From Macrostomum lignano (taxonomy: Eukaryota), in assembly GCA_002269645.1 (NCBI GenBank), contig NIVC01003413.1:35245-99244 (forward strand): a stretch of DNA of 64,000 nt. The letters run 5' to 3'. Below are positions 17,446-64,000 of this stretch, piece by piece (the stretch's first letter is position 1; every line of letters begins with the position of its first letter). The translations under genes were made by a program, and so were the position numbers. The notes under the pieces were generated by a model. It saw only the letters and a program-made list of their open reading frames with translations, was not told the origin of the DNA and did not search any database.

Positions 17446-17447
17446 TA

Positions 17448-17486
<39 letters not shown>

Positions 17487-17736
17487 CCCACTCACTCAAA
17501 TCAGTCAGTCAGTCAGTCAGTCAGTCAGTCAGTCAGTCAGTCATCCACTCACTCAAATCAGTCAGTCAGTCACCCACTCACTCAAGTCAGTCAGTCAGTC
17601 AGTCAGTCAGTCAGTCAGTCAGTCACCAACTCACTCAAGTCAGTCAGTCAGTCAGTCAGTCAGTCAGTCAGTCAGTCAGTCACCAACTCACTCAAGTCAG
17701 TCAGTCAGTCACCCACTCACTCCAGTCAGTCAGTCA

Positions 17737-17779
<43 letters not shown>

Positions 17780-17781
17780 TA

Positions 17782-17824
<43 letters not shown>

Positions 17825-18276: not shown

Positions 18277-18310
<34 letters not shown>

Positions 18311-27300: not shown

Positions 27301-29106
27301 TCTCTGCGTCCTCTGCAGAATTTTTGCGTCCTCTGCATGCCAAATAAATGCGCCGTTTTTTTTGCAAGTTCGACAGCGAGTTGGCAACGGCACGGTCAGC
27401 GAGGATTTCATTCCACAAGTTTCCGAATCGAGACGACCTACTGGAAAAATGGTTAAAGAGCATTTCCCGAAAAGCAAATTTCAAACCATCGAAGCACATT
27501 CGAAGTTGCTCTCTTCTCTTCACGGAATCAGATTTTATTACGGAGAATCAGGACAACAATGCATATCGGAAAAAGAAACAACACGAAGAAGGTGCCAATC
27601 TTGAAAAAAATTAAGAGAAGATGCAGTTCCCACCCACTACAGCACGACCAGCATGCCATCATATTTTACAAAAACTCCGCCAGCTTCGCGATCAGGAAAC
27701 GCATCGTCGCAACGGCGTCACGAGATTGAAATCGCACAGGTGGAACAACAAGAGAGATTATTTCGCCAGTGAAAGAATTCACTCACTTGAATATTTTGTC
27801 GCTAAGTTTTCGAAAGAGAAGAAGCCGTGTGGATTTGCTGCGCGTCAATCAGCAAACAATCTCAGCATTATGCTTATAGCCAATGGTCTACCTCCCTTGA
27901 TCAAGAGTTGCATAGTCGTGAATTGTATGTTGGAAGTCCTAGTTTTTTATGGCAGTCGGGCAGCATCGCCAAAACAGTACAGCCACATCATTCCAGCGTC
28001 CTAAACTCTGAGTTCAGCCACGCAGCTTGTAAATTTAATGGCCATTGTGAAGTCTTCAACTGAATCCAATACATTCCACGTTGACCACAAAGAGAGGCTG
28101 CTCTAGATAATCTCAAACAGTTGCTCCAGCAGGACAATTGTCCGTCGGACGGCAGTGCGCCGTCTTGCCTGGCTTTTATTTCTAATCTGGCGGCCGAGAT
28201 TCGTGAAGAAGTTTATCTTAACTGTCTACCGGACAAAAGTGACATGGCCACAGTTTACTATGTTAGTGGTTTCTTTGCGAGCTCATCAGTTAGGAAGAAG
28301 AAGTGGGAATCATGCAAACAGACTCTGGTGTGCGAAAATTCGATTGTGGACTTTGAATTTGAAGAGACATCTCAAATGAAAGAATCGTCGGACCTTCTTC
28401 GTGAAATCGATCGAGGTGGTCTCTTCTGGTCGCAGGAGAATCTGTTTCAGTTGGGCATTATGTGCTGGCGTGTCTTCACAGAAGTCAAGAACACACCCAA
28501 CCTAAAAAGACAAACTTCTGTCAGCTTCCAATCAAAGGGAGACATTTTGTTTCGTGATGGACCTCCTGCTGACAGATCATGGTGACTTTCTATTTGGTAA
28601 GACACACTGCACCGCTGGCCATGATCTGGTCCGCGAGATCATCAACAAGTTTTTCAATTGCATGTCAAAGATGCTAACAAAGCAGATCAATAAAGATGAG
28701 ACAAACAAAACATTGAAGAGGAAGCTTACAGATAGATAAACGGTTTATTTCACTCGCCCAAAGAAAATATTAAAACGCTGCTTCTAACTGCTCACTTGGC
28801 ATAGACCAGACATCAAATTACGAGTAAATGGTGGATACAGCACATATTTCCCAATAATAGCAAGTGTCTAGGGCAAAAATGCTTTCGTGCCTAGCTTATA
28901 TATAACCATATATTTGGTTATATATACCATATATTTCCCATTTACTAAGCAGCTGCTCACCCTGCGGCTCCTGGCAGTCAGATGTCACACAGATTTTCAG
29001 TGACTGCTGGCACTGAGGTCCCGTGAAACCCAGATCGCACTTGCACTCTTCACGGTGATAGTAAGCTGAAATGGTGACGAGTGAGTGAGTCAATAAGTCA
29101 GTCAAT

Positions 29107-29138
<32 letters not shown>

Positions 29139-29139
29139 C

Positions 29140-29171
<32 letters not shown>

Positions 29172-48099: not shown

Positions 48100-49409
48100 G
48101 ATGATTTGCAAGAGAAAGTTCAAGTTTCACAGAAGGATTTATTTTCAATGAAAGTCTAACTGATGCAGGAAAAGTCTTTCACTCTGCGGTTTCCTAGAGC
48201 GGCACTCAGGGGTTTAAATAAAAAAAAAATTAAGGGAACTTCGTTGCAGAAAATCCGCGGCAATTCCGTCGACTGCCAGATGACTTGAGTTTTGCACAGG
48301 TACCTTGTTTCTTTTTTTAGTATCAAGGTGGTCTGTTTATTATTACCGTTTCAAGAGACTGTTTCTATTTTAAGCAACAGACTAGCAATCAGCGCCTCCC
48401 GTTTTGCGGAGGCAACGAAAAAGGGATAAAATATTACAATATTTTTAATAAACTACATTAAGATTTGACCTTGAATAGTTTCTATTGTCAGAATCGTAAG
48501 GAAAAAGATGTTTAAAGCAAAAAACATCAGCCCTCAAAGCCAGCTATCCAGTATAAATTAGCGTCTCCTCAAGACATCAATTTGACATCAAAGCTTTCCC
48601 TTAAGCCATGACCTAACCCTAATTCTCCCTTTGATATAACTTTTTCTTTGCCAGCTACCAACAAATTCAAATTGAACATCGAGCCTCAGCTTTTCAGCAA
48701 TCCCCCTGAGTCTTAAGCACAGAATTCTGTGGTATTAGCATCTCAACAATTCCCCCAAGACCCACAGCAAGGCCCGTGAGCCTTGACGTCTACGCAATTC
48801 ACCTCGTAAGACTTGACATCACAGCGATTTCTCCTGTGGACCTTAAAATCTCAGCACCTCCCCAATTTTAAATTTCAAAAACTCCACCCATAAGCCTTGA
48901 TATCTCAGCAATTTTCCAAATGAACCTCGACATCTCAAAAATTCTCCCACGAGCCTTGAAATCATAGCAATATTCCCTATGAGACTAGAACAGGTTTTAT
49001 TTTCCTGCTATCTTTTGCCCACAAGCCAGAAAGACTTTCTAACAAACTGGCCTCCAAGGGCCCTATTATGAGTGTGAGGCTCACATCTTAGAATTCCTTT
49101 TTCGACTGTATTTTATAGTCAAGCAAGCAAGCAGGTTAGTTGACAAAATGCAGAGCAATGCAGTTTTGAGCGAAGCAGGGTTATCGCTCAAGCCGTCCCT
49201 TTCTGTGCCATTCTTAGGCACCATATCACCCACCAAAGCATTTGCTGCGAGTCAACTGTGTCACGCGCTCGCAGGCTGCTGGCTTGGCTCTCAAACCTCA
49301 ACTTTGTTATTTGTAATTTAGTGTAGAGCTGGTCTGGCTGGATAGCCCCGGCCGAGACGAGAGGAGGCTGTTGTTTTTTTGCTGCGATGTAAGCACTTTT
49401 CCAGTGCTT

Positions 49410-49560
49410 ACGAAGACTGTTTCTATTTTTAGCAACAAGGTGGTCTGTTCCTATTGTCGCCGCTTGAAGAGACTGTTTCTATTTTTAGCAACAAGGTGGC
49501 CTGTTCTTATTGTCGCCGCTTGAAGAGACTGTTTCTATTTTTAGCAACAGATTCAGGTGC
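49410..49560. repeat. ~59-bp tandem repeat (AGACTGTTTCTATTTTTAGCAACAAGGTGG...)
   Basis: About 2.5 copies; a related copy at ~48305-48385. Confidence 0.8.
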
Positions 49561-49799
49561 CACTGCTGTAAACCTCTGAGCAGACTTTGCATTCCCACCA
49601 AGCAAGTTTCCTATAGCTAAACTTTGAATTATAAATCCAGGTTTGCAAATAAATGACCCAAGATGGCTTTGAAAAAAATTAGTCAATTGTTTCTGAACGC
49701 TGTCGTGAGTGCCGTGGTTGAACAGGAAAACAGAGTTACTCAAATAAACTGATGAGTAGAAGGCATGAGGGGGCTTTTGGGACAAAATTTTTCACCTCC

Positions 49800-50035
49800 T
49801 CCATAATCCACCTAAATCCATCCATATTATCCCTGACAGAATCAGAAAAAAGGGGGGTCGCACTCGCTCCGAAAACATCGTCCATAATCCACCTAAATCC
49901 ATCCATATTATCCCTGACAGAATCTTGAAAAAGGGGAGGGGTCGCACTTGCTCCGAAAACTTCGAACATAATCCTATTAAATCCATCCATATTATCCCTG
50001 ACAGAATCAGAGCATTATCCCTGACAGAATCAGAG
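49800..50035. repeat. ~81-84-bp tandem repeat x3, possibly subterminal to the first viral element
   Basis: CATAATCCACCTAAATCCATCCATATTATCCCTGACAGAATC recurs at 49800, 49881 and ~49965. Confidence 0.85.
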
Positions 50036-50223
50036 CATAACAGTAGGACACCTGTTATGCTCACTGACACCGACATCCACCCATAGCATGTTCGAAACAA
50101 TCAGAAAATAATCTGCATTCTTCTCCCCACATTCAATTTGCAAAGCGAAACCAGATCCCAAAGACTTTAAATCATCAGCGCAGGGTCCTTACCCTTTGAA
50201 AAAAATCTAAATTCTCAATAAAA

Positions 50224-50467: not shown

Positions 50468-51331
50468 TTACATTCTCTCAATGATCAACGTCAATACAAA
50501 CTCTTCCCCATTAAAATCAACGCCCATCCCATCTTCAGTCTCAAACTGTAGCACAATCTCGTGAATCTCCTTATTACTCAATACAACTCTTTTCACTGGA
50601 TTTGGTTTCTCTACCACCATCTGTCCTCCAGCTACAGAGTTGGAGATATTGTACAAAATATTCGTTCGCTTTCCCTTAAATACCCAATCAAGACTAAGAT
50701 TACTTCTGATTAGAATATTCAAACCCTTTACAATGTCTGCAATATTGGGTGCTAAGAACAAACCGCTTACATTTTCCCGGGCCATTTTAACGGTCCCCGA
50801 TGCTTGAGTGGCGGTCCGCGCCGCGGATTCTGCCTTATAAACTTTCTTCTCGAATCCTAATTCCCTATACCAAGTGTCATCTCTAAACTCAACCTCCGCA
50901 TCTTTGTGAACTTGCATGACCACTCTCATTACAGTGAGATCATAGGTTAGTTTGACAGGGAACAGTTTCTTCTCTGGCTTACTCGCATCAGGTGTCTCAA
51001 AATGGCCTCTTTTAGTAAAGACGTTTTCTAGAAAGTTATTGTAGGTATCCACACTTTGCGTGCTCACATGGAATACCACAGGGTCTGCTGCTGCACCTTT
51101 CCATTTGTAATAAAACTTATTATTTGCTGCCATCACATTGGGAACGTTTGACCAACCAGTGAAGTCGTTAAGATAGACATGGTAATTAGCGCCTGGATCC
51201 AGGCGAATCGCCTGCTCTAATTTTTCAACAAATATCCCGTTTGAGTCATTAATTAGCCCGGTTATTGTATTAGGAATGCTCTCCTTAGAGTGTGAAACAA
51301 TGTTGTTTAGTCTTTCGGCTATGGCTTCCAT
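50468..51331 (-). CDS. Minor capsid (penton) protein, Polinton/adintovirus-like element A
   Basis: WSNVPNV..ANNKFYY, NILIRSNL, TNILY, VVEKPNPV, VDFNGEEFVLTLII motifs; adjacent to the MCP. Confidence 0.75.
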   Translation of the reverse strand: MEAIAERLNNIVSHSKESIPNTITGLINDSNGIFVEKLEQAIRLDPGANYHVYLNDFTGWSNVPNVMAANNKFYYKWKGAAADPVVFHVSTQSVDTYNNFLENVFTKRGHFETPDASKPEKKLFPVKLTYDLTVMRVVMQVHKDAEVEFRDDTWYRELGFEKKVYKAESAARTATQASGTVKMARENVSGLFLAPNIADIVKGLNILIRSNLSLDWVFKGKRTNILYNISNSVAGGQMVVEKPNPVKRVVLSNKEIHEIVLQFETEDGMGVDFNGEEFVLTLIIERM

Positions 51332-51354
51332 TTTTTTCACCCACAAAAAAATAT

Positions 51355-52641
51355 TTAAACTTTACTGGATGAATTGTTGATCATGTTAAGCTTCACCTTC
51401 CTCTCAAATGCATAGACAATGTACAGGTCCACGGGTGTTGCGGCAGTCCTTTCAATGTTAGTCACGATATTCACAGGGCTGTTATCAGTAGGCATTTGTC
51501 TGGCAGACACATCAGCGCCAAACATCGGATATAGAGTTCCATATTGAAGAGCAGTGATAGCAATTCCATTGTTCTCTTTCACAGCCAAGTCGACCAACTC
51601 GCTGTAAAATTTGCTAATCTTGTTCTGACTGAAATTTCCATTTTGTGGCAGTGCAGGGTAAAGATTATCACTGATTTCATGCTGAATGGACCGCACGTCT
51701 CCATGCATGTAGCGTATAATGCTATTTGGGTTTCTCATGTTAATAATAATATACCGTGGATTGCTGCATGATCCCTCTTTAATGCAGATGTTTGTTCTAG
51801 TTTCGTTTCGCTCATCTCGACACATGTAGGCCGTGTATGCAACATCAATGTCCTTCTCTATTGCCTTAAGATAATCAGCTTTTAGTGCAGTCTTTGGCTC
51901 AATGACTTCCAAATACAGCTCGATTCCGGTTAGCTTCACATCCATCCTAGTGTGATCCGCCCCAGTCCACAACGCTCTACTGCGATCATCTCTAGTCAGT
52001 CTAAATGTGTAGCTAAAGTTGCTAGTCAGTCGATTAAATGTATTACAGAATCCACTCATGAATCTCAATGGTACAAATACATCAACAGACCGATACAGCG
52101 GGTTCTTAGCAGCATCATCAGCACCTTGCAATGCATAGTTGTATCTCTTCTTCCTCTTTTTATAGCCACTGTCATTGGTGTCTCCTTCTTTTTCATCTGC
52201 AATAAAACCCGCACCACTTCCCAACTGAATAAAATCAGGATTCTCAATCAAACAATGAGCGTCATAGACAATTCCAAAGTTGGCGATTCGCTCCAACTCT
52301 GTGTTCCCATTCGATACACTAAACTCCTTGAACATGTACGCCCAAAAGTTACTGATCAGAGCCACATCCGCATCATGCTTGTCAACGTTAGCACGAGCCG
52401 CATCCGCACCACCTTTTGTCTTGAATTGAAATGTCATATGGAAGCCGCTCTTAAGACTGTGCACACTAACCAGAGACGAACATCCATTGTATGTAAATGT
52501 CAGTGTTTGACCTGGACCCAAATTAGTTTCATTCTGGTTCTCGTGACTCGGAACTCTAACTTGTGTCGCTTTGATTGTGCTATCATCACTCAAAATAGGC
52601 TTGTTAATTTTGTAGAAAACTGGTGTCAGTGGGTCGTTCAT
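51355..52641 (-). CDS. Major capsid protein (double jelly-roll), element A
   Basis: 428 aa, intact; DDSTI, VALISNFWAYMF, VFVPLRFMSGFCN, FRLTRDD, YPMFGADVS resemble one Polinton/adintovirus MCP lineage. Confidence 0.75.
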   Translation of the reverse strand: MNDPLTPVFYKINKPILSDDSTIKATQVRVPSHENQNETNLGPGQTLTFTYNGCSSLVSVHSLKSGFHMTFQFKTKGGADAARANVDKHDADVALISNFWAYMFKEFSVSNGNTELERIANFGIVYDAHCLIENPDFIQLGSGAGFIADEKEGDTNDSGYKKRKKRYNYALQGADDAAKNPLYRSVDVFVPLRFMSGFCNTFNRLTSNFSYTFRLTRDDRSRALWTGADHTRMDVKLTGIELYLEVIEPKTALKADYLKAIEKDIDVAYTAYMCRDERNETRTNICIKEGSCSNPRYIIINMRNPNSIIRYMHGDVRSIQHEISDNLYPALPQNGNFSQNKISKFYSELVDLAVKENNGIAITALQYGTLYPMFGADVSARQMPTDNSPVNIVTNIERTAATPVDLYIVYAFERKVKLNMINNSSSKV

Positions 52642-52671
52642 TTTTTAACTAAAAATAAAATAAAATAAGAA

Positions 52672-53892
52672 ATGAAGCGGAAAAGTTCATATCATATCTC
52701 TGAACTAGAAAAGCTGGCGCAAGCAGAGAAACGAGTTACCGGACTAATCAACAAAGAACAACAATCTTACAATGAATTCGTCCAAGCAGCCACCGAATTT
52801 CACAAACCTGGATACACAGAAGCGAAGAAAAACATCGACACTGTGAAGGAAACAATTGATGATATTCAAGAGAGCCAGTTGCAAAACACATTGGGTAAAA
52901 TCCCATCTTCACCGGGACAACCACAGGCTCAGCAACCAGGACAACCAGTGCAGATGAAAGTGACGGATAACTTTTTTGGCCCCGTATTGGATGATGGAAA
53001 ATATATTTTTGGAATTAGCGCCTGGCGAAAAAATATTACCGGGGAACCGGCGGATTACAACATTGAAGTGACAAAGGAAAATATTTTAATCAATAAAGGC
53101 GCAGAAACTAAACGAATCCCCTTCACTCAAAGTTTACTCGACTACATGACTAAAAATCTAGAGAAAACGTCTAAAAAGCAGTTCGAAAATTACAAAGATC
53201 TTGTTACCTTCGCTTTAGAGAGGGATATAGATATGCTCAAGAACGACGGTGTTTTGAAAATTTTACATGAAAACGGGATTGTCTTGAACAGGTTTAAAAA
53301 ATACAAATACTTTCAACAATGGTTTGGTTTGCCGGATCAAGAAGAGGTCATAAGACAACAACCACAACAACCACAACAACCACAGCCACAACAGCAGCAA
53401 CCAAAACAACAACTACAACAACAACTACAACAACCACAACAGCAGCAACCACAAACACAACCACAACCACAACAACCTCCACCGCCACAGCAACAAATCA
53501 CACCCGAACAAGTACTAGAAGCGCTTGAAAAAGCAGGGCCAAATGAGATTTCCCAGTACAAAGATACAAACCCTGATACTTGGCGACAATTAGAGCGGCT
53601 CTCACCAGAACGAATGAAGCGAATCAATGACAGAGTATTCACACCTCAACAAAGACAAGCGCCACATGACAGTTCCTCCTCTGACCAATCATTCGAATCA
53701 CCTCCAAGCTCTTCCGGAAAAGGCATGCCTGAATTCTACAAGCGGTTAGCTGTTCTTCTAGGAGCGGCAAAGACCGGAATGAAAGACGAGAATAGAAAAG
53801 AATTTGTCAACATCCTGGACAAAATGCTTGAGAGAAAATATATCGATAAAAGAGCAAGAGAACTTTTGCTTTCACGGTTTAACAAAAAATAA
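52672..53892 (+). CDS. Polinton-associated protein with Q/P-rich linker
   Basis: 406 aa intact; C-terminal GKG...RLAVLLGAAKTG...EFVNILDKML resembles a motif common in Polinton accessory ORFs. Confidence 0.65.
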   Translation: MKRKSSYHISELEKLAQAEKRVTGLINKEQQSYNEFVQAATEFHKPGYTEAKKNIDTVKETIDDIQESQLQNTLGKIPSSPGQPQAQQPGQPVQMKVTDNFFGPVLDDGKYIFGISAWRKNITGEPADYNIEVTKENILINKGAETKRIPFTQSLLDYMTKNLEKTSKKQFENYKDLVTFALERDIDMLKNDGVLKILHENGIVLNRFKKYKYFQQWFGLPDQEEVIRQQPQQPQQPQPQQQQPKQQLQQQLQQPQQQQPQTQPQPQQPPPPQQQITPEQVLEALEKAGPNEISQYKDTNPDTWRQLERLSPERMKRINDRVFTPQQRQAPHDSSSSDQSFESPPSSSGKGMPEFYKRLAVLLGAAKTGMKDENRKEFVNILDKMLERKYIDKRARELLLSRFNKK

Positions 53893-53908
53893 ATTTCTAT
53901 TTAAAAGG

Positions 53909-54277
53909 ATGCCAATTATTTTCGAAAAAGACATTGACAAATACTACGACAAAGAGGAACTTAATCTCATTAAACGCGGATCTGGACTTTTCCCTGCAGG
54001 CCACTATCCAAGAAAAGAACGTTCTGGGAACGGTCTTGCCGATTTGATCGCTCAAGGGGCCAAGATTTTTAAGGTCATTGGAGAGAACAAAGAGAACATC
54101 AAGAACGTTGCCAAAGCGGCTGGCAGTGTAGCCACAGCAGCCAAAAAGATAAAGGATACTGTAACACCTAAACAAGATATTCAACCCCTTGCACCGAGTG
54201 CAGATAGTGTCGATCCAGCCATCTACGCAAAGATGAGAGCTGAATATAAGAAAGGAGGCGGTTTTAAATTTGACTAA
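53909..54277 (+). CDS. Small putative virion core / membrane-lytic precursor
   Basis: ATG at 53909; G-x-G motifs (KRGSG, RSGNG, KKGGG) and amphipathic helix GLADLIAQGAKIFKVI. Confidence 0.55.
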   Translation: MPIIFEKDIDKYYDKEELNLIKRGSGLFPAGHYPRKERSGNGLADLIAQGAKIFKVIGENKENIKNVAKAAGSVATAAKKIKDTVTPKQDIQPLAPSADSVDPAIYAKMRAEYKKGGGFKFD

Positions 54278-54473
54278 TTTGGTGCACCCTGACGGTAAAA
54301 GAGGTGTGAGGGTGTAGGACTAGTCGGATGTAGGACTAGTCGAAAAAAGACACACACAACCCGAAAAAAGACACACACATCCCGCAAAGAGACACACACA
54401 TACACATCCCGAAAAAAGACACACGCGTCTTAAATACACAAGTTTAAAAAGAAAAAGTTTTTTTACATAAAAA

Positions 54474-55273
54474 ATGGACTTCACAAACGACTTTCATCCC
54501 CACTGGACACGCAATCAGATAAAATTTGCTCACAACGAGATAATTCCAGGGCACTTCCGATGCATTGTTGTTGGCTCATCTGGGTCAGGGAAAACCTTCA
54601 GAGTTTTTAACATGCTCCTCAGACCTGGATTCCTCGATTATGACACACTACATATCTATTCACCCACTCTGTATCAAGATGAGTATAAAATGCTAGTAGC
54701 GGGCCTACAGAACAAACTCAACAAGGAAGATATTATTCAATGTTTTAGACATCAAAAAGACCTCAACAGCAACCCGGAAGTTGTAGCCACTGAATACGCA
54801 AAGCACATCCCAGACAATGAAAAATGGCAAAATATTAAAGTTTTCACTTATGGAGATCCACAGATAGATCCTAAAACTAAACTCTTACCTCAACCTGATG
54901 AACTAGAAAAGGGGAGAAAGCACCTAATTGTCTTTGATGACTGCATGACCGGTCCCAGAAACAGATAGAAAATTATTTCACCCGGGGTAGACACAATAAC
55001 TGCAATGTTATTTACATTGCCCAAAACTGGTTTGAACTGCCAAATAAAACAATTAGAGGTAACTGTAATTTGATTCTCCTTTTCCCAACCATACCACAGG
55101 ATCGACTGAAACGATTTTATAATGAAGTCATTGCCCCAGCTCACATTACATATCCAGCTAAGAACTCTAACAGAACAATATCACAGGAGGAATTTGTTAA
55201 CATATGCTATGAAAAGTGGAACCAACCTTATCAGTTTGTCATGATTAATAAGGAGAAAAGAATTTTAATTTAA
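54474..55273 (+). CDS. A32-like packaging ATPase, element A (one frameshift)
   Basis: Walker A GSSGSGKT, Walker B LIVFDD, then shifted frame ENYFTRGRHNNCNVIYIAQNWF; shift at GGTCCCAG ~54950. Confidence 0.9.
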
Positions 55274-55288
55274 TTTTTCATTTAAAAA

Positions 55289-56014
55289 ATGTCTATTAAT
55301 TTTGCAGGTGAGTCAACTACAAGCAACAGCACTCTCACAACTTCCTTCCTTGATAAGCGCTACATTAACACTGATGAGGAGATCCCAGAGATCAAACTGA
55401 ATAAAAACAGACTGAAAGCCCTAGAGCGCTCCATGCACCAGTTGCAAATAAACATGGAAGATCTCAGGCTTAAAGTAGCTAGGCAGAAGTTTGAAAGTGA
55501 TAAGCTTTATGTGCCGTTGTTAAACGCAACTAATGAACTTAGGTCAGAAATAACTTCGGCAGTCTCGCAAATCAACGGCTTAAGATCGACAGTTAATCTT
55601 CTGGGAAATTCCACTGATAGACGGATGCGTATTCTTGAAGGAGGAGTTTTCGCAAACACAGCTAAAGTGAGGAATTTAGAAGAGTTCATGAACCAGTCAA
55701 CAGCGTTGCATGATAGAATTAAAGAAAACGTCGCAACCAACACAGGTAAAGTGAGGAATTTAGAAGAGTTCATGAACCAGTCAACAGCGTTGCATGATAG
55801 AATTAAAGAAAGACTTGATGCAATTAAAGTCTATTTAGATTTAATTTTTACCGAATGGCAGAAATCGGTGAGAAGAATCGGTCGTCTTGAACGCTTGCAT
55901 AATCTCAAAAACATTGACGCTGAAGAGGCACCACAGACCTGCACAAGGGAAACAAGTGATCCAACCGACTTGTTTGAGATCATGCGTAGAATGGAGCTCA
56001 CAGACAATGAATAG
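55289..56014 (+). CDS. Coiled-coil protein with internal 27-aa duplication
   Basis: KVRNLEEFMNQSTALHDRIKE occurs twice (81-nt repeat); heptad-like composition. Confidence 0.65.
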   Translation: MSINFAGESTTSNSTLTTSFLDKRYINTDEEIPEIKLNKNRLKALERSMHQLQINMEDLRLKVARQKFESDKLYVPLLNATNELRSEITSAVSQINGLRSTVNLLGNSTDRRMRILEGGVFANTAKVRNLEEFMNQSTALHDRIKENVATNTGKVRNLEEFMNQSTALHDRIKERLDAIKVYLDLIFTEWQKSVRRIGRLERLHNLKNIDAEEAPQTCTRETSDPTDLFEIMRRMELTDNE

Positions 56015-56122
56015 GCAGATTCAGAGACCTGTTGCCGTCACTGCAGACAAAGCAATCAACCGTAAAACAAATCTAACCACCACCAACTAGTTGCCGATTT
56101 TTTTTTAAAAATTCCCTAAAAA

Positions 56123-56533
56123 ATGGATGCTCAAAATTCTCTTTATGATCCGAACGCTCCCACAACACCTAGTGCACCTAGTGCACCCCAATATGAGCAA
56201 CAAAAACTCTACCCCGTCATTACTTGTAACTCTCAACAGTTTCGACTAGTGGAGATTCAAAAAATGCGAGATGATCTTGAAAAAAATATTTTCCACAACA
56301 CAAAGAAAATTAAGCGCTATGACAGCCACTGTAAATTTTTCGACTACAGCAATATGATTCTAGGATCTGTGTGTGTTCTAACTGGGTCTGCTGCAGCTGT
56401 CTCAACGTTGCCAGTCATCACAGCCCCAATCGCAATTCCACTTGGTTCAGTAGGTGCTGCATGTGGACTTATTTCAGCAATTACTGGAGCATTAGCGCGA
56501 GTAGTAGGGCGAATTATGATACTGCCGCACTAG
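56123..56533 (+). CDS. Adintovirus-type hydrophobic membrane protein, C-terminally truncated
   Basis: LYPVI...FRLVEI...KRY followed by two hydrophobic segments; frame runs into AGTAGTAG at 56500 and stops. Confidence 0.6.
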   Translation: MDAQNSLYDPNAPTTPSAPSAPQYEQQKLYPVITCNSQQFRLVEIQKMRDDLEKNIFHNTKKIKRYDSHCKFFDYSNMILGSVCVLTGSAAAVSTLPVITAPIAIPLGSVGAACGLISAITGALARVVGRIMILPH

Positions 56534-56575
56534 CACTGGCGAGATAGGCGGCAATGCAAATGTATAGGGAAAAAT

Positions 56576-57070
56576 ACACTGCGGAGATATGAGCCCTATC
56601 TCTGTGCATTGGGGACGGCTAAGCACTGCAGAGATATGAGCTCTATCTCTGTGCATTGGGGACGGCTAAGCACTGCAGAGATATGAGCTCTATCTCTGTG
56701 CATTGGGGACGGCTAAGCACTGCAGAGATATGAGCTCTATCTCTGTGCATTGGGGACGGCTAAGCACTGCAGAGATATGAGCTCTATCTCTGTGCATTGG
56801 GGACGGCTAAGCACTGCAGAGATATGAGCTCTATCTCTGCTTAACACAGGAGTGATAGGAGAAGAGGCGGCCTATTTCTTTACACTGGAGATGGTTAACA
56901 CTGCAGAGATAGGAGGAGAGGCGGCCTATCTCTTTGCATTGGGGTGGTTAACACTGCAGAGATAGGAGGAGAGGCGGCCTATCTCTTTGCATTGGGGGTG
57001 GTTAACACTGCAGAGATAGGAGGAGAGGCGGCCTATCTCTTTGCATTGGGGGTGGTTAACACTGCAGAGA
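56576..57070. repeat. Tandem hairpin repeats: 47-bp unit x~5.5, then 53-54-bp unit x~3
   Basis: Stems CAGAGATA/TATCTCTG (7-nt loop) and AGAGATAGG/CCTATCTCT (11-nt loop). Confidence 0.95.
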
Positions 57071-57114
57071 TAAGATGTTAATCTATGTAATTGGAAATAA
57101 TGTTTGCGAAAGAG

Positions 57115-57175
57115 CCAATCACAGAGCCCGGAGTGGGATGGGTGGTTTGGGGTGGTTCGGTCGAGGGTATATAAG
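57115..57175 (+). promoter_or_regulatory. Putative Pol II promoter (CCAAT box + TATA box)
   Basis: CCAAT at 57115, G-rich tract, TATATAAG at 57168-57175, ~105 nt upstream of ATG 57280. Confidence 0.6.
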
Positions 57176-57279
57176 CCCCGAAACTGACAAGAAAGAATTC
57201 TCAATTTTTCAAATCCAAAATTTCATCCGAACTTTTCCTCAGCTTTTAACTTTTGTGAGTTTTCAATTGCGAAAGGAAA

Positions 57280-58056
57280 ATGGACATCTGTGAAGGCTAT
57301 AAGGCACAAGTCCAGGAGTTTGAAGGACAAAAATTTATCGCTATTCGCAAGTTTTACCGACACGGCAGCACGGCAAGTCTGAAGCCAGGCGTCCCAGGAT
57401 TCAACCTGAATGTTCACCAATGGAAGAAATTGAAGGAGGTGAAACGCTCACTTGTGATTTCTGCACGCAACAACGAGCCCAAGGTCGTGAAACTCGGCTT
57501 CGATAAGTTTGTGGAAGTCAAAGGCGGCATCATTTGGCTCAAACGGCTGCCGGAAGATTGCTGCGAGGAGTTTTTGAGACGAAACGCCGTACCACTGACT
57601 CCGCCGCTGTGGCAGAAGCTCTGGAAAATCGCCTCCTGGATCGACGGTCAGCTGGTGGCTCCCTTGAGGAACACAATGCAGTACGAGCTGGAGTCTGATG
57701 AGGAAGAGGAGGAAGAGGACAAGAAGCTCAAGTTGGAGGCTGACCAGGACACGAAGCCCATAATGGAGACTGATGAGGGCGGAGATCATGCTGATGACGA
57801 GGACGTTAGCTCGCCCACAAGGCCGCGCATTGTGACTGAGCCAATCACATCCACACCGATACCTTCGGTTGATTCTGATGCTGGACTGCTTCCGCAGCGG
57901 GACACCAACCTTGAGGAAGATCCGGTGTGGTATCAGTTCAGGGCGCATGCAGCGGCTTCGACGGTGAGCAGCAGCAGCAGGAAGCGAAAGCTGCCATTTC
58001 AACTTCGTCGGCAGGACGCGATGAGGCTGCAGCCCAATGTTCGCTTTGATAACTGA
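57280..58056 (+). CDS. PC4/Sub1-like ssDNA-binding domain protein with acidic tail, element B
   Basis: VQEFEGQKFIAIRKFY...PGVPGFNLNVHQWKKL is a PC4 signature; a second degenerate repeat follows. Confidence 0.75.
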   Translation: MDICEGYKAQVQEFEGQKFIAIRKFYRHGSTASLKPGVPGFNLNVHQWKKLKEVKRSLVISARNNEPKVVKLGFDKFVEVKGGIIWLKRLPEDCCEEFLRRNAVPLTPPLWQKLWKIASWIDGQLVAPLRNTMQYELESDEEEEEEDKKLKLEADQDTKPIMETDEGGDHADDEDVSSPTRPRIVTEPITSTPIPSVDSDAGLLPQRDTNLEEDPVWYQFRAHAAASTVSSSSRKRKLPFQLRRQDAMRLQPNVRFDN

Positions 58057-58376
58057 ACAGCTAGAATGCTTTGAATGCATTGGACTAACTAAATTACTTT
58101 TAGCTTGCACATGATTATCCAGCCTGACGGCACTATGCTGTTTTTTATCTCTGCTATTTCTGAAATGCTGGTGTGCGAGTGTTTTAGTGTTCGTTTTTAT
58201 GGATTGTTTGCTTTCGGAAAATACACCGACTGTTACGATGTTAGAGGTTTCAATCTGACAGTAATAAATTAATTTGCCACTCGTTTCTCTATCATTTAAT
58301 TGGAATATAAATTTCTACTTAAGAAAAAATACTGTACAGCTAGAGCAGGTGGATAGGCACGTATCTTGATAAACCC

Positions 58377-59447
58377 ATGATGGAGAAAATTTATTTGAAA
58401 CCTGAGCAACCGGCTAGTTTTTCTTGTGCCTCAAAGTTGCTGCATGAAGTGAGGCAAAGAGGTGATCGAATATCTGCAAAGAGCATTGAGCAGTGGCTCA
58501 GCGAGCAGCCAGTGCACACTCTGCACAAGCCAGCTAGGAGGCGATATCCAAGGGCCCCAATCATAGTGCGCGCAATCGATGATCAGTGGGAACTTGACTT
58601 AGTGGAAATGATTCCATTCGCAAAGCATAATAAAGGCTACAAATATATTCTCACATGCATTGACGTGCTCTCAAAATGTGCTTGGGCCAAGGCACTGAAA
58701 AATAAATCTGCTGCAGAAGTGAAGTCAGCATTCGAGAGCATACTGAGAAGTTCAAAGCGCCAGCCACGCACAGTTCGCACAGATCAGGGGAAGGAATTTA
58801 TCAACTCCACTTTCCGTCAATACTGCATTGACAGAGGGATTCTGGCTTTCCCAACTAACAGCGAGCAGAAGGCAGCTGTCATTGAGCGATGGAATCGAAC
58901 TCTGAAAAGTAGAATGTGGCGCTACTTCACCTACAAGAGCACACTGCACTGGCTTGATGTGCTGCCTAAGCTGGTAAAATCCTACAACAATACCTACCAC
59001 AGAAGCATCAAAATGGCACCCACTAGTGTCTGCAAAGAGAATGAATCTGAAGTGTGGATGAACCTGTACGATGGAAAAGCAGTCGAGACTCTAGAAAAAT
59101 TAAAGAAGCCTAAGTTCGCTGAAAACCAGTCAGTGAGAATTTCCAATGCTCCACGGATATTCAAAAAGGGATACAAAGCGAGCTGGAGTGAGGAAGTGTA
59201 CACCGTGGTGAGCAGAGCCCCAAAACATTATCCCTACATGTACAAGATTAAAGACATGCGGGGGCAAGAGATTCGAGGACTCTTCCATGAGCACGAGCTG
59301 CAGGCTGTCCCGGACTCACAGCGGCTGTATGTGATTGAGAAGATCCTGAAAACGGAGAAGCGGAAGGGAAAAATTCGCTATCTGGTGAAATGGGCGGGCT
59401 ACGACTCGACTGGCTGGGTGGATGAAAAAGACTTAAGAAAGGTTTAG
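58377..59447 (+). CDS. Maverick/Polinton rve (DDE) integrase with C-terminal chromodomain
   Basis: WELDLVEM, CIDVLSK, TDQGKEF, IERWNRTLK, YNNTYH; chromo IEKIL...YLVKWAGY...WV; intact. Confidence 0.95.
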   Translation: MMEKIYLKPEQPASFSCASKLLHEVRQRGDRISAKSIEQWLSEQPVHTLHKPARRRYPRAPIIVRAIDDQWELDLVEMIPFAKHNKGYKYILTCIDVLSKCAWAKALKNKSAAEVKSAFESILRSSKRQPRTVRTDQGKEFINSTFRQYCIDRGILAFPTNSEQKAAVIERWNRTLKSRMWRYFTYKSTLHWLDVLPKLVKSYNNTYHRSIKMAPTSVCKENESEVWMNLYDGKAVETLEKLKKPKFAENQSVRISNAPRIFKKGYKASWSEEVYTVVSRAPKHYPYMYKIKDMRGQEIRGLFHEHELQAVPDSQRLYVIEKILKTEKRKGKIRYLVKWAGYDSTGWVDEKDLRKV

Positions 59448-59475
59448 CTTTGGCACAGCCCTCATCATGTAGTTT

Positions 59476-60294
59476 ATGATTATAATGCGAACTATTTTGA
59501 TTAACAGTGAGCATGCTGAAGGTACTCCTAGTGACTTTAATTTTTACCTGCCTTCACCTATTTACTTGGATCGAAATGTGGACTATGAGGCAGGTCTGGC
59601 TGAAATCCATCTGCCTGCTGCATGGTTCAATGTTGACGAGCCTTACTGCTTCACTGTCTCAGATGGAAGAGAGCATGAGGCCCTGGTTCTTCAACCCGGA
59701 CGCTTTGCTAGAGTGGAGGAGCTGGTGGAGCGCCTGAATGAGCTGCTGGCCAACTCTGATTCGCTGTTCTTTGATGCAATGAGTGACAGGGAGTCTGAGA
59801 TGGAGGCTGATGAGTCCGGCCTGATGGGGCGTAGTGGCAACAGGGAATTTGGTATGAAGTTCGAAATCCGCAACTCACGAACTGTGGTGCACAACAACAC
59901 TGCGAGAGCAGAGCTGTTTCTTCCATCTAGTAAAATTCTGCATTGGCTGGGATTTGGAAACCAGGCTGTGAAAATCCAGCCAGGGAGCCGCGTATCCGAG
60001 CATTGCATTGGCTGCCCGCGCACCAGCTTAATCAATGTGCACTGCAGTATCGTTGAGTCAACTAATTGCAACTGGAGCTCCTTGTTGAGAACAGTTGGAA
60101 TGAAAGCTGGCATTGAATGGGGCAACTATCAAACAAAAATATTTAAGAAAACAATATTCTTCCCGATTCAACGAATCAGTCTTCTTCACAGCATTCGAGT
60201 TCAGCTGCGGGACATCTATGGTTGCCCACTGATTGCACAGACTCACAGCCCTGTTCTGCTTACAGTTCAAATTCAGGAGAAACGCATTCAATGA
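59476..60294 (+). CDS. Minor capsid (penton) protein, element B
   Basis: NSEHAEGTPSDFNFYLPSPIYL...YEAGLAEIHLP, INVHCSIVE, SIRVQLRDIYG; intact. Confidence 0.8.
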   Translation: MIIMRTILINSEHAEGTPSDFNFYLPSPIYLDRNVDYEAGLAEIHLPAAWFNVDEPYCFTVSDGREHEALVLQPGRFARVEELVERLNELLANSDSLFFDAMSDRESEMEADESGLMGRSGNREFGMKFEIRNSRTVVHNNTARAELFLPSSKILHWLGFGNQAVKIQPGSRVSEHCIGCPRTSLINVHCSIVESTNCNWSSLLRTVGMKAGIEWGNYQTKIFKKTIFFPIQRISLLHSIRVQLRDIYGCPLIAQTHSPVLLTVQIQEKRIQ

Positions 60295-60668
60295 ACTACC
60301 AGCAGCTAATCCAGCAATATTCGGGGGTGAGGACAGGACACGAAAAGCCTGCACTCTATGGCTGTGGGAGCTTCCCAGGGATCATGACATACCAGCCTCC
60401 GCCAGCGGCTATATCATCATCATCAGCCTCGACGCTTAGCAACGTCAGGCGCAAAAGAAATACTGAAGCAAGTCCGAAACGATTGAAGAAAAAGAAGGGC
60501 ACCCGAAAGGCAACTGGTGGAAATCGCAGTAAGAGGTCGAGCAAGGCTAGTGGGAAAAAGCTTAAGAATAGGAAGACGAAAGCAAAGAAGAATAGAGCAG
60601 GCGGAGGAAAGCGAAAGCAAAAAGTCAGCAAGAAAACTGTGAAACGCGTGCTCGACTCTCTGTCATAG
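60291..60668 (+). CDS. Basic K/R-rich putative core protein, element B
   Basis: ATGA overlap with the penton stop; YGCGSFPG then lysine/arginine-rich tail. Confidence 0.6.
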   Translation: MNYQQLIQQYSGVRTGHEKPALYGCGSFPGIMTYQPPPAAISSSSASTLSNVRRKRNTEASPKRLKKKKGTRKATGGNRSKRSSKASGKKLKNRKTKAKKNRAGGGKRKQKVSKKTVKRVLDSLS

Positions 60669-60670
60669 AC

Positions 60671-61952
60671 ATGGCTTACGGATTCAATCCCAGACTTGAT
60701 TTATTTAAGACGCCCGTTCTACAAACCTGCATTGAAAAAGCTACTTATGTTGATATTCACCCAGTTAATTCCATTGTTGCAAACTCTCCATTGAATTTGA
60801 CTGCCACCAATCTGCCGATGAATATACAGATCTGCTTAATTCTTTTCTTTATATTCGCTGCCGCCTTGTGAGACTGGATGGGGGTTTGCTGAGGGAGGAT
60901 GTTCGAGATGGAGATGGCATCATCACCGAGCGCAGAGACAGTGACGTGCACCCAGAAAATTTTGTTCTGTCTACAGCCTTCTCAGATGTAATTGTGAGCA
61001 TTAACCAGCGAGTGGTGTCTGGTGGAGACCAGCTCTATCCCTACCATGCGTACTTCAAAGCACTAATGAGCTCATCCGATGCCCAGCAACTAAAACTTTA
61101 CCCTGCTGGCTTCCTGGAGCCGAACTCGGCAGCTGAAGAGCACACGGAGAGCCACAGGGAATCCCAATGGATGGAGTATGCGGGGCCGCTCTTCAGCGAT
61201 GTTTTCCAGTGCCCAGTGTTTCTGCTAAGCAATCTGCACCTGCACATCAAACTGGTCCCAGCGATGGGGCCTTTGCCATCAGAACCCCGAATGCAAACAA
61301 CGCGGCATACCGAATGGAAATCTCTCACAGCATTCTGCATCTTCGCCGAGTCAAAGTGATGCCCCACATCAGCCTGGCCCATGAGCAGGGGCTGACAAAC
61401 CAAAATGCACTGTATCCCATCGAGCGAACTGAAATGCAGAACTTCATCCTACCCCAGGGTATTCAGTCAAAAAACATTGAAGGATTCACTCATGGAAAAT
61501 TGCCGAAGTTCATCATGCTGGCCTTCGTGAGCCACCGAGCATTCAACGGTCATCATCACGCGAGCCCGTTACAGTTCCAGAGCTTCAACCTTAGCCGATT
61601 GGCTCTAAAGAAAGGTGGGGAAACCGTGTGCCACGGCGCCTTCACACCTGAAAACAATTCCTTCGTAAGAGAATACTTGCACTACCTGAAAAGCTGTCAA
61701 TCTGCAAGCCACACAAACTCGGTCCCGTGGATCCCCTACCAGCTCTTCTCCAACAACACCACGGTGTTTGCATTCGATCTCACACCCGAGGGAGCGGCTC
61801 TGTGGTACGGACAGAAGGAGGGCAACCTGCGGCTGGAGATTCGCTTCCAACAGGCTCTGAATGAAGCGGTGTCCCTGATTGCTATGTGCCTGTATGACTC
61901 GCTGATTGAGGTCACCAAGCACCGAGAGCTTTTGCTGGACTATTCCTCTTAA
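60671..61952 (+). CDS. Major capsid protein, canonical Maverick type (two frameshifts)
   Basis: LDLFKTPVLQTCIE, YPYHAYF, YPIER, AFNG, FAFDLTP, GNLRLEIRF; single-base gaps at ~60790 and ~61260. Confidence 0.9.
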
Positions 61953-61957
61953 TTGAC

Positions 61958-62470
61958 ATGGATGCAATTCAACTACTTAATCTCGCCAGAAAATTTTTGC
62001 CTTACCAAAAATTTCTCATAGTTACTTTACATTTGCGCTATAAAAATTCTCTGCCCTTGAATGTAAAAAGAAAATTTAGATCATCAATTTCCTTTGAAAA
62101 CAAGTTTGTTTTTGTCCTACTTCAGCACAATGGCTCATTTGGTCACTGGGTGGTGTGCTATGTTGGGCAAGGAAATCGCATTGAGTTGTTCAACTCCCTC
62201 GGCTGGGAACCTGAAATTTTATCTTTGGTTTATAATTTGTTTCGAGAGATTAAAACAACTGGCTTTTGGCTCCGAAGCAATATAAACAGAGTTCAATGTG
62301 CTAACTCTAATAAATGCGGAATGTTTTGCATCTATTTTGCTTATCAAAAGTTTCTGTTCAATCGGTCATTTGAGGGGATTTTGAAGCATTTGCATGCTAA
62401 TGAGAAAAATCATTTGAATGATAGAATCTTACAGAGGTTTGAAGCCAACTTAAGAAAAAGATGTCCGTGA
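61958..62470 (+). CDS. Adenain-like cysteine protease
   Basis: GHWVVCY, IELFNSLG, VQCANSNKCGMFCIYF catalytic motifs. Confidence 0.9.
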   Translation: MDAIQLLNLARKFLPYQKFLIVTLHLRYKNSLPLNVKRKFRSSISFENKFVFVLLQHNGSFGHWVVCYVGQGNRIELFNSLGWEPEILSLVYNLFREIKTTGFWLRSNINRVQCANSNKCGMFCIYFAYQKFLFNRSFEGILKHLHANEKNHLNDRILQRFEANLRKRCP

Positions 62471-63139
62471 TTTCTAATATTTATGCATTAAACATGGGAG
62501 AAAAGCAAGTTTGCTACGATATCCGCCTCAGGCAGGGAAGCTGCATGATTGTCTGCGGGCCCACCAATGCAGGAAAAACAACCTTTGTCGAACACCTGAT
62601 CCAGTACAGAGACGTCATGTTTGATGTGAAGCCTGGCAGAGTTCTGTGGTACTATGGGATCTCACAGGCAGGCCATGCAGAACTGAACAGCCTAGGTGTG
62701 CAGCTGCGCCAGGGATTTCCCACCAACATCGAGGCAGCACTTAGGCCCAATGACCTGGTTGTTTTCGATGACTTAATAGAGGAAACTTCAAACTCTGCTT
62801 CAATGCGAAATTTTTTCACAGGAATCGCACATCACTTGCCGTGCTTTTGGTGATGCTGACTCAGAATATATTTTTCAAGGGAAAAGAGTCGCGAACAATG
62901 AGCTTGAATGTAATGTACTTAGCTATCTTGAAAAACCCCGAGACCAGCTGCAGATTGCAGCACTGGGCAGGCAGTGCTTTACAGAGAAGCCCGGCTTTCT
63001 GCTGTCAGTGTTCAAGCACGTGACCGCGCAGGGCAGGGGAGCCTACCTGTTCCTAGACTTTCACCCATCAACTCCCGATGAGCTGCGAGTGCGGGCCAGA
63101 ATTCTGCCCAACCAGCGACCCCATCTTGTATTTGCTTAA
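62461..63139 (+). CDS. A32-like packaging ATPase, element B (two frameshifts)
   Basis: GPTNAGKTT, VVFDDL, MLTQNIFFKG, shifted NPRDQLQI..LGRQ and YLFLDFHP. Confidence 0.9.
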
Positions 63140-63180
63140 GAAAGTGAAGCTTGTTTTTATCAGCTATTGTTTTCATCGCA

Positions 63181-63517
63181 ATGGAAGTGCTTGATTCATA
63201 TGCAAGTCTTTTTGCGGTTCTTGCGTCACCTAAATATACCGTGCGCTTCAAGCGGCTGTTGATAAAAAATTGTCCAAAAGAAGTGCGTTATTTTCTTGTC
63301 GAGGCCTGCCATAATCTCTTACAAAACAATCTATCGTTTTCGCTCGATGAAAAGCTGTTCTTGCAAAGTCAAAAGAGATAATTCGAAAAATTACTCACAA
63401 AAGAAAAAGACAGACTTGTTGAAGGCTGGCTTCATCAAAATACTCCCGATTCTGCTTAAGCTGGTAAAGAAGAAGAAGCAAAATGAACAAATTTTCAGAA
63501 ATGGTTCTGATTCCTAA
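63181..63517 (+). CDS. Conserved Maverick small ORF (frameshifted)
   Basis: LVEACHNLLQNNL and GFIKILPILL resemble the small Maverick ORF that follows the ATPase. Confidence 0.55.
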
Positions 63518-64000
63518 AGCAGAGTATGAGATGTTGATGCAGAATTTGAAGCCAAATGAGACTACCACTGAAGCTGACTTGAAGCAGGCTCAGAAGAAAT
63601 GCGATGACATCTTGTATGCCGAGGATTGTCCAGAAGATGTGAAAACCGCCATGTACCAAAGTGCAATGCAAAGTTTGCTGGCCAAGCGCAAGCACGCTGG
63701 AAAAGAAGGAGCACGCAATACTGAAGCCAAGTTGATGAAAACAGAGACACCCAGATAAGCACCTGGGAAGAGAAGATCAGCAAGTCGTGTGCCACAGAAA
63801 TTCAAAACCAGGGCTCGCAGTCTGTGGACGATCCTGTCCACCAATCCAGAGCTGATTCGAGTTTGTGAAAACGGGGAGGTGGAAATCGCCAGGCCACGTC
63901 AATCCCTTCCTCAAACATACTGCGACTTGATTCAGCACACAGTGAGGGATCGCCATGTGAGCGTGAACCAGTTGGGTGGGAACGAGTTCATCGATTTTCT
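63483..64000 (+). CDS. Maverick accessory ORF, interrupted, runs off window
   Basis: MVLIP start; downstream VPQKFKTRARSL...ENGEVEI motif. Confidence 0.5.

What the first reader, a model, noticed from the sequence alone, without database searches (positions are those of the whole stretch)
56494..56533. Probable virus-in-virus insertion point: Maverick B interrupts a gene of element A
Seen: the membrane-protein ORF (56123) loses its family-like character at ...GALAR, exactly where AGTAGTAG begins (56500), followed by tandem repeats, a promoter and the B genes. Established: Polinton termini begin 5'-AG, often (AGT)n, with 6-bp TSDs. Prediction: beyond the window B ends in ...CTACTACT followed by AGCGCG (copy of 56494-56499), the rest of this ORF and the missing A genes (pPolB, integrase, protease).
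Basis: partly seen in the sequence, partly recalled or inferred. Interest (0 to 1): 0.72.

Follow-up and report, generated by a model that had tools for sequence, protein, structure and literature searches.

The report
Polinton nested inside another Polinton's gene
One virus-like jumping element (a Polinton/Maverick) has landed in the middle of a membrane-protein gene of a second, distantly related Polinton in an animal genome; the junction looks real, but such nesting is already known and is an ordinary result of two busy element families sharing a genome.

Summary
The ORF at 56123 matches its protein family up to the codon at 56498-56500; relatives run on about 60-100 residues. In public-run contigs, A-family copies leave the window's sequence at 56500 and continue the gene in frame (3 of 4 runs), while B-type ends begin at 56499-56500 behind other flanks. 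So 56500 is the left end of an (AGT)2-type Maverick (B: integrase-chromodomain, capsid, protease, ATPase; vertebrate/Beta-like gene order) inside a two-helix membrane-protein gene of a distant Polinton lineage (A; Alpha-like order). Not shown: B's right end, the 6-bp target duplication, the rest of A, and any contig bridging the junction; no whole genome was available. Nested Mavericks/PLVs are published (Trichomonas, Halocafeteria) and this scan noted nests on other DNA. Verdict: new member of a known kind, low interest. Side lead with more promise: the interrupted protein's family is strongly enriched in ESCRT late-domain-like motifs (P[ST]AP, YPxL), suggesting an orbivirus-NS3-like exit protein.

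The parts
50468..51331 (-). Element A: 287-aa ORF, probable minor capsid (penton) protein
   Evidence: ORF; no Pfam hit; assignment is inference from position beside the major capsid gene and from recalled Polinton layout
51355..52641 (-). Element A: major capsid protein, double jelly roll, intact 428 aa
   Evidence: PF21738 23.9 bits, under the cut-off of 27; 9 homologues all carrying PF21738; AlphaFold model pLDDT 54.9 matches viral DJR capsids, 97 hits at E<=0.001
52672..53892 (+). Element A: 406-aa ORF with a Gln/Pro-rich tract, function not assigned
53909..54277 (+). Element A: 122-aa basic ORF, possible core protein
   Evidence: ORF; no Pfam hit; role inferred
54474..55273 (+). Element A: packaging ATPase, broken by a frame change near 54941-54968
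   Evidence: Pox_A32 E=6e-4, under cut-off; second piece in another frame
55289..56014 (+). Element A: 241-aa ORF with an 84-bp internal duplication
   Evidence: no Pfam hit
56123..56499 (+). Element A: 5' part of a membrane-protein gene (long hydrophobic stretch, PSAP twice near the N-terminus), cut off after Arg126; the frame runs on into B DNA to a stop at 56533
56494..56499 (.). Predicted left copy of a 6-bp target-site duplication
   Evidence: position only; the right copy was not seen
56500..56576 (+). Element B: left terminus, (AGT)2 end motif and first unique part of the probable TIR
   Evidence: a 113-nt contig with 0 differences ends exactly at 56500 (X19 record 7); two ~90%-identical contigs align from 56499 with 181 and 176 nt of other flank (X19 record 6, X4 record 15); motif class in PMC8097293
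56577..57072 (.). Element B: two tandem arrays (47 bp x 5.6; 54 bp x 4.3), probably inside the TIR
   Evidence: TIR length not determined
57115..57174 (+). Element B: CCAAT and TATA-like boxes upstream of the first gene
   Evidence: sequence; function untested
57280..58056 (+). Element B: PC4-domain accessory gene
   Evidence: PF02229 E=5.5e-8, above cut-off
58377..59447 (+). Element B: rve integrase with C-terminal chromodomain, open 356-aa frame
   Evidence: PF00665 E=3.2e-13 and PF00385 E=1.4e-5, both above cut-off
59476..60294 (+). Element B: probable minor capsid protein
   Evidence: ORF; no Pfam hit; inferred from the published order int-mcp-pw-Mcp-pro
60291..60668 (+). Element B: Lys/Arg-rich ORF in the position of PW
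   Evidence: ORF; positional inference
60671..61952 (+). Element B: major capsid gene in three frames (changes near 60790-60799 and 61257-61269)
   Evidence: tblastn of full-length relatives; model of natural relative P0017, pLDDT 65.1, matches viral DJR capsids, 88 hits at E<=0.001
61958..62470 (+). Element B: adenovirus-type maturation protease
   Evidence: PF00770 E=7.2e-5, above cut-off
62461..63139 (+). Element B: P-loop ATPase, in pieces (first frame stops at 62853)
   Evidence: weak nSTAND3 hit E=0.0064 at the P-loop; pieces
63181..64000 (+). Element B: broken ORFs in the position of PM and PZ; element runs off the window
   Evidence: no Pfam hit; names recalled and positional

Best explanation
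A Maverick/Polinton of one lineage (B) integrated into a resident Polinton of a distant lineage (A). B's rve integrase joined its (AGT)2 end to the target at 56499/56500, inside A's membrane-protein gene, leaving a 5' gene fragment that reads 10 codons into B's end before a stop. Shown: the gene is cut there, other A-family copies are uninterrupted, B-type ends start there in other contexts, and A and B differ in capsid lineage and codon composition. Inferred from the known mechanism: staggered cut with a 6-bp duplication, so B's far end should be followed by a second copy of 56494-56499 and the rest of A (integrase, protease and polymerase, which the window lacks for A). The site was most likely hit by chance in a repeat-rich region with two multi-copy families; both copies now carry lesions (A: ATPase; B: capsid, ATPase and the last ORFs).
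For: Protein break at the motif; 144 of 147 family hits that start at least 30 positions before the break align at least 30 positions past it (best 150 of 483 hits). Uninterrupted copies: loose ends behind 56500 in X19 (2 contigs), X7 (1 contig, 255 nt) and X9 (1 contig, 181 nt); read by eye in the ORF's frame they begin with the same basic motif that follows Arg126 in the homologues. B end: X19 record 7 (depth 532, 0 differences) ends at 56500; X19 record 6 and X4 record 15 carry other flanks. Two lineages: capsid profiles A2 vs A3 prob 0.5, E=0.11, 16% identity; GC 40.5% vs 46.9%, GC3 0.31-0.44 in 7 of 7 A ORFs vs 0.495 or more in 6 of 7 B ORFs. End motif and TSD norm: PMC8097293. Label order of the Alpha reference map puts integrase, protease and PolB beyond FtsK, the side that is missing here (PMC8502044 Fig. 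S2 text layer).
Against: No right end, TSD or downstream A sequence was seen; no genome is held. None of the 28 listed contig pieces bridges the junction with 31 nt on each side (920 pieces and 55 loose ends were not shown). The continuing contig listed for X9 is only about 92% identical to this A copy, so it is a family member, not this locus. The two flank-bearing B contigs may be one locus seen in two runs. X4 shows no loose end behind 56500 among the rows listed. A variant (X19 record 8, depth 219) has the 56508-56620 stretch preceded by array sequence, so B-family ends are not uniform. A's own left end could not be found.
Confidence: 0.8

Rival explanations
1. B did insert here, but the structure was later rearranged (recombination between B copies, or a deletion from B's far end), so the rest of A does not lie behind B; the junction is real but is no longer a clean nest.
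For: Both elements are decaying; the region is repeat-rich and has another abrupt break at 47735/47736 in a host EGF exon; many vertebrate Mavericks lack discernible TIRs (PMC8097293).
Against: B's first 113 nt are identical to a high-depth contig, which suggests a young end with little time for rearrangement.
Confidence: 0.12
2. Assembly chimera: the assembler joined an A copy to a B copy; frame breaks in both elements are consensus errors.
For: No bridging contig among the listed pieces; both families are multi-copy; at several positions this A copy differs from nearly all contig depth (e.g. 56049, 56373).
Against: Misjoins usually need shared sequence; here A and B share only 1-2 bases at the junction, and the join falls exactly on the element's terminal motif, which is what integration gives.
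Confidence: 0.04
3. B-family elements target A-family elements (chromodomain-guided hyperparasitism), and such nests between A's virion module and its replication module are the route to the Alpha-polymerase/Beta-capsid hybrids reported for adintoviruses.
For: B's integrase has a chromodomain, thought to influence site choice in retrotransposons (PMC8502044); hybrids exist; element-in-virus preference is known for Ngaro retrotransposons (PMC8547959).
Against: One event only; other B-type ends sit in flanks unlike the 806 nt of window laid; no evidence of sequence-specific integration was found for related EMALE virophages.
Confidence: 0.04

Closest known systems
Animal Mavericks/Polintons of the 5'-(AGT)2//(ACT)2-3' end class (Barreat and Katzourakis 2021, PMC8097293); Beta/Terrapene-class adintovirus virion module (Starrett et al. 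2021, PMC8502044)
   Same: Element B: AGTAGT left end, integrase-minor capsid-PW-major capsid-protease order, ATPase, chromodomain integrase, accessory gene next to the end; all genes on one strand as reported for X. tropicalis elements.
   Different: Polymerase, right TIR and TSD are outside the window; the order after the protease is ATPase then PM/PZ-like ORFs; this copy has frame breaks; class not confirmed by phylogeny.
Alpha/Mayetiola-class adintoviruses (PMC8502044)
   Same: Element A: penton and hexon at one side, then ATPase and accessory genes, with integrase, protease and polymerase expected beyond; PF21738-type capsid far from B's.
   Different: No PLA2 domain was detected in any A ORF; no polymerase in the window, so the defining Alpha PolB could not be checked; termini not found.
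Nested Mavericks of Trichomonas vaginalis (PMC12289875, PMC7845603) and nested PLVs/virophages of Halocafeteria seosinensis (bioRxiv 10.64898/2026.07.28.741278)
   Same: A virus-like integrating element inside another; Halocafeteria has 5 PLVs and 9 virophages embedded in other viral elements.
   Different: Those hosts are protists; this is an animal-type genome, and the nest joins two distant Polinton lineages with a base-resolved break in a gene.
SLATT-like two-helix membrane proteins of PLVs/MELD viruses (PMC12220804, PMC8502044) and orbivirus NS3 (PMC7409164)
   Same: The interrupted protein has a long hydrophobic stretch followed, in the family, by a basic tract; N-terminal PSAP as in NS3; weak SLATT and NS3 profile hits in a few relatives.
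   Different: Hits are sparse (SLATT_5 2 of 70, SLATT_1 3 of 70, Orbi_NS3 1 of 70 members), so neither membership is shown.

Membership tests
Maverick/Polinton (element B) | 5'-AG / (AGT)2 terminal motif at a true element boundary | tested here: met
   motif
Maverick/Polinton (element B) | Terminal inverted repeats at both ends | not testable with these tools
   right end outside the window; no genome; no inverted copy in the window
Maverick/Polinton (element B) | 6-bp target-site duplication | not testable with these tools
   only the left candidate is in the window; no right-end contig with it among rows shown
Maverick/Polinton (element B) | rve integrase (with chromodomain) | tested here: met
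Maverick/Polinton (element B) | Double-jelly-roll major capsid protein | tested here: met
   via natural relative P0017 (72-81% identical over three pieces); moderate model confidence
Maverick/Polinton (element B) | Adenovirus-type protease and packaging ATPase | tested here: met
   protease above Pfam cut-off; ATPase only by a weak P-loop hit
Maverick/Polinton (element B) | Protein-primed DNA polymerase B | not testable with these tools
   element runs off the window at 64000
Maverick/Polinton (element A) | Double-jelly-roll major capsid protein | tested here: met
   (below cut-off)
Maverick/Polinton (element A) | A32-like packaging ATPase | tested here: inconclusive
   Pox_A32 E=6e-4, under cut-off; gene broken
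Maverick/Polinton (element A) | Integrase, protease, polymerase | not testable with these tools
   absent from the window: no second integrase or protease by tblastn; five ORFs in 49043-50086 gave no such Pfam hit; predicted beyond B
Maverick/Polinton (element A) | Terminal inverted repeats | tested here: inconclusive
   no clear left end between 47736 and 50224
Alpha vs Beta adintovirus classes | PolB class and hexon clustering with Mayetiola or Terrapene references | not tested
   no labelled references were available; assignment rests on gene order and on the two capsids being distant
GasderminX (adintovirus) | Gasdermin C-terminal-like domain with pX-like tail, in a Beta-class virion module | tested here: not met
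   no gasdermin family among the 25 listed Pfam families for 70 relatives; the gene sits in the non-Beta-like element
SLATT domain | Profile match to SLATT families | tested here: inconclusive
   SLATT_5 in 2 of 70 (best E=3.4e-6), SLATT_1 in 3 of 70; none for the window ORF
Orbivirus NS3 | Profile match to Orbi_NS3; PSAP and PPxY late domains; two membrane helices | tested here: inconclusive
   1 of 70 at E=0.0022; Atlas feature score 0.78, a lead only; P[ST]AP enriched, PPxY not clearly

The most novel reading that the evidence does not exclude
The nest itself is ordinary, but the gene it breaks may not be: its family (483 representatives) carries P[ST]AP and YPxL motifs far above chance ahead of a hydrophobic stretch and a basic tract, the layout of orbivirus NS3. 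If these are working late domains, A-type Polintons encode an ESCRT-recruiting (TSG101/ALIX) exit protein, giving a concrete non-lytic release route for animal Polinton particles, and B's insertion has removed it from this copy. (A second, less likely reading, about 0.04, is that B targets A and that such nests breed Alpha/Beta hybrids.)
Probability: 0.35. Interest if true: 0.55.

Novelty: new member of a known kind. Interest (0 to 1): 0.27.

Why it matters
As a nest it matters little: it shows that two distant Polinton lineages coexist in this genome, that B was mobile after A, and it gives a base-resolved example in an animal of something already reported in protists. It is a caution for annotation (one locus, two capsid and two ATPase genes, two elements). 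The side lead on late-domain motifs would matter more, because how animal Polinton particles leave cells is not settled; a title-and-text search for 'Polinton' with 'ESCRT' returned 2 papers with 1 mention of ESCRT each, seen as listings only.

Tried and rejected
Whole-genome check: no genome is held, so the right end could not be sought. My first label for the interrupted gene, GasderminX, came from recall and was dropped after reading PMC8502044 sections 3.1-3.2 and the Pfam scan of relatives; my first Alpha/Beta labels were the wrong way round. Searches for related loci found no relatives in viral contigs for the membrane protein, A capsid or B capsid or in metagenome contigs; the one integrase hit (L001, 26% identity) is a distant PLV-like contig and was not used. 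Broad alignments had no stretch conserved enough to search with. So gene neighbourhoods of intact A-type elements were not obtained. Neither capsid matched PDB by sequence. Runs X7 and X9 have no depth at 56517-56570: a hole in contigs, not evidence that B is absent. Contig depths are not copy numbers and were not used as such. B's first 121 nt do not fold better than shuffles (z=-1.02): no terminal hairpin. A's left end: only AGTAGT at 47805 and 48050 as candidates, neither supported. PDB profile hits of the membrane family (best E=2e-4, a bacterial translocator chain) and RTX hits in 17 of 70 members are read as generic hydrophobic-hairpin matches. PMC11131425 (passages) had nothing on nesting. 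Names for relatives: 1 of 13 listed members carried a name, 'hypothetical protein'.

Full report
Observation. AGTAGTAG begins at 56500 and is the only copy on either strand of the window; AGCGCG precedes it at 56494-56499. The hexamer AGTAGT has a chance of 2.5e-4 per position and occurs, with its reverse complement, 21 times in 64 kb, so the motif alone proves little. Two tandem arrays follow (47 bp x 5.6 at 56577-56839; 54 bp x 4.3 at 56841-57072), then CCAAT and TATA-like boxes (57115-57174, read; untested) and the first B gene at 57280.

Context. The first 47.7 kb is a tandem cluster of host gene copies with (AGTC)n arrays; EGF_CA domains pass the Pfam cut-off at 47405-47587 and a weak NIDO hit lies at 941-1696, so the host is animal-type. 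From about 50.2 kb come two virus-like gene sets. A (50468-56499) has a double-jelly-roll capsid (PF21738 below cut-off; 9 homologues with that domain; model of pLDDT 54.9 matching viral capsids), an A32-like ATPase broken by a frame change near 54941-54968 and several unassigned ORFs. B (56500 to the window's end) has PC4, rve integrase with chromodomain and adenovirus-type protease above Pfam cut-offs, a capsid gene in three frames whose natural relative P0017 folds like viral DJR capsids, and a broken P-loop ATPase. The two capsids are distant (profile match prob 0.5, E=0.11, 16% identity). Composition differs: GC 40.5% vs 46.9%; GC3 0.31-0.44 in 7 of 7 A ORFs and 0.495 or more in 6 of 7 B ORFs. 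These are two elements, not one.

The gene is cut at the motif. The ORF at 56123 aligns with 6 of 6 homologues through an invariant Arg126, whose codon is 56498-56500. Five of the six run on for about 60-100 residues; the sixth is 135 aa long and ends 8 residues later. tblastn of five full-length homologues ends at 56500 for three and 7-8 codons later for two, with no second piece in the window. A profile search found 483 relatives at E<=0.001; of the best 150, 147 start at least 30 profile positions before the break and 144 of those align at least 30 positions past it.

Other copies. No whole genome is held, but 19 of 21 listed public runs hold part of 52000-60000. I laid contigs of 4 of them (X4, X19, X7, X9) on 55815-56620. 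A-family contigs leave the window's sequence at 56500 in three runs: X19 (2 contigs), X7 (1, 255 nt loose) and X9 (1, 181 nt loose). Read by eye in the ORF's frame, the loose parts begin with the basic motif that follows Arg126 in the homologues. From the other side, a 113-nt contig with no differences and depth 532 ends exactly at 56500 (X19 record 7), and two contigs about 90% identical align from 56499 onward with 181 and 176 nt of unrelated flank (X19 record 6; X4 record 15; possibly one locus). The boundary is thus bracketed at 56499-56501, and the published end motif places it at 56500: (AGT)2//(ACT)2 is the commonest end of vertebrate Mavericks, with 6-bp TSDs (PMC8097293, passages and section 7).

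What one search did not show. None of the 28 listed pieces bridges the junction with 31 nt on each side, and no listed contig shows a right end followed by AGCGCG; 920 pieces and 55 loose ends were not displayed. X4 lists no loose end behind 56500. The continuing X9 contig is about 92% identical to this copy, so it is a relative, not an empty allele of this locus. One variant (X19 record 8) has the 56508-56620 stretch preceded by array sequence. The TSD, B's right end and the rest of A therefore remain predictions. A's left end was not found: homology to the host cluster stops abruptly at 47735 and nothing between there and 50224 is a convincing terminus.

Mechanism. Shown: gene break, uninterrupted relatives, B-type ends in other flanks, two lineages. 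Inferred from established Polinton biology: B's rve integrase made a staggered cut and joined the element end, duplicating 6 bp; B arrived after A. A lacks integrase, protease and polymerase in the window (no second integrase or protease by tblastn), and the label order of the Alpha reference map puts those genes beyond the ATPase, on the side now occupied by B (PMC8502044 Supplementary Fig. S2, text layer only; the figure itself and the slide files could not be read). I give 0.8 to a clean nest, 0.12 to a later rearrangement, 0.04 to an assembly chimera and 0.04 to targeted nesting.

Comparison with what is known. B's order (integrase, minor capsid, PW-like, major capsid, protease) matches vertebrate Mavericks and the Beta/Terrapene module; A's order resembles the Alpha/Mayetiola maps, though no PLA2 domain was detected. 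Neither class was tested by phylogeny. [quoted passage not shown] Retrotransposons nested in PLVs and virophages are also described (PMC12220804, PMC8547959, passages). My searches brought up no paper devoted to a two-lineage nest in an animal, but most subscription papers are not in the library. Earlier notes of this scan report nested Polintons on other DNA (unchecked AI notes); none covers this place or sequence.

Side lead. The interrupted protein has PSAP twice near its N-terminus and a long hydrophobic stretch. Among the best 150 relatives, P[ST]AP occurs in the first 60 residues of 53 (shuffled mean 0.29, maximum 3) and YPxL in 77 (shuffled mean 2.2, maximum 9). Restricting to the 87 whose scored alignment starts after the motif region, so that the motif cannot have helped the score, gives 32 and 54 of 87, either motif in 60 of 87 (shuffled mean 1.6, maximum 6); PPxY is not enriched there (3 of 87). 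Shuffles ignore relatedness, and I did not show that the distant relatives lie in Polintons. That PTAP and YPDL-like motifs bind ESCRT-I and ALIX is from an abstract listing (PMC2958808); bluetongue virus NS3 has two membrane helices and a PSAP that binds TSG101 (PMC7409164, passages). Profile links are thin: Orbi_NS3 in 1 of 70 and SLATT families in 2-3 of 70 relatives, and an Atlas score of 0.78 to an NS3 cluster. SLATT-like pore proteins of PLVs are published, with endosomal escape, abortive infection or lytic exit proposed (PMC12220804, 10.64898/2026.10.13.758929, passages). Searches pairing Polinton with ESCRT or late-domain terms found no paper making this link (listings only).

Verdict. 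Observation confirmed; interpretation supported except for the untested right end and TSD. A new example of a known kind; interest 0.27.

Noticed in passing
window 56123-56499 and relatives P0022-P0170: The interrupted protein's family is strongly enriched in ESCRT late-domain-like motifs (P[ST]AP, YPxL) at the N-terminus, ahead of a hydrophobic stretch and basic tract: an NS3-like exit-protein candidate.
   Followed up: partly
window 47735/47736: Sharp break in a host EGF-domain exon: four other copies of the cluster unit (ending at 3429, 16854, 23462, 37381) continue alike, this one switches to unrelated sequence. It may be the edge of another insertion or of element A.
   Followed up: partly
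window 1-47735: Tandem cluster of degenerate host gene copies (EGF_CA, weak NIDO and Ig/cadherin-like hits) with long (AGTC)n arrays at 5898-7714, 17301-18626, 29080-29409 and 37874-38253, and a 27-bp minisatellite at 314-559 and 12621-12768.
   Followed up: no
window 4325-4960: Retroviral-type aspartyl protease ORF, probably an LTR retrotransposon fragment inside the host cluster.
   Followed up: no
window 48302-48381, 49414-49549, 49800-50038: A 56-bp repeat family split by about 1.1 kb and an 84-bp array lie left of A's genes; they could be A's subterminal arrays. 48802-48986 has weak inverted similarity to 26603-26792.
   Followed up: partly
window 56508-56620 (X19 record 8): A deep B-family variant has this stretch preceded by array sequence rather than by the terminal motif, suggesting higher-order repeats inside some B-family TIRs.
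   Followed up: no
window 60671-64000: B's end is identical to a high-depth contig and its integrase frame is open, yet the capsid, ATPase and last ORFs are broken; real decay and consensus errors were not told apart.
   Followed up: no
window 57280-58056: PC4-domain accessory gene with an acidic, low-complexity tail next to B's left end.
   Followed up: no
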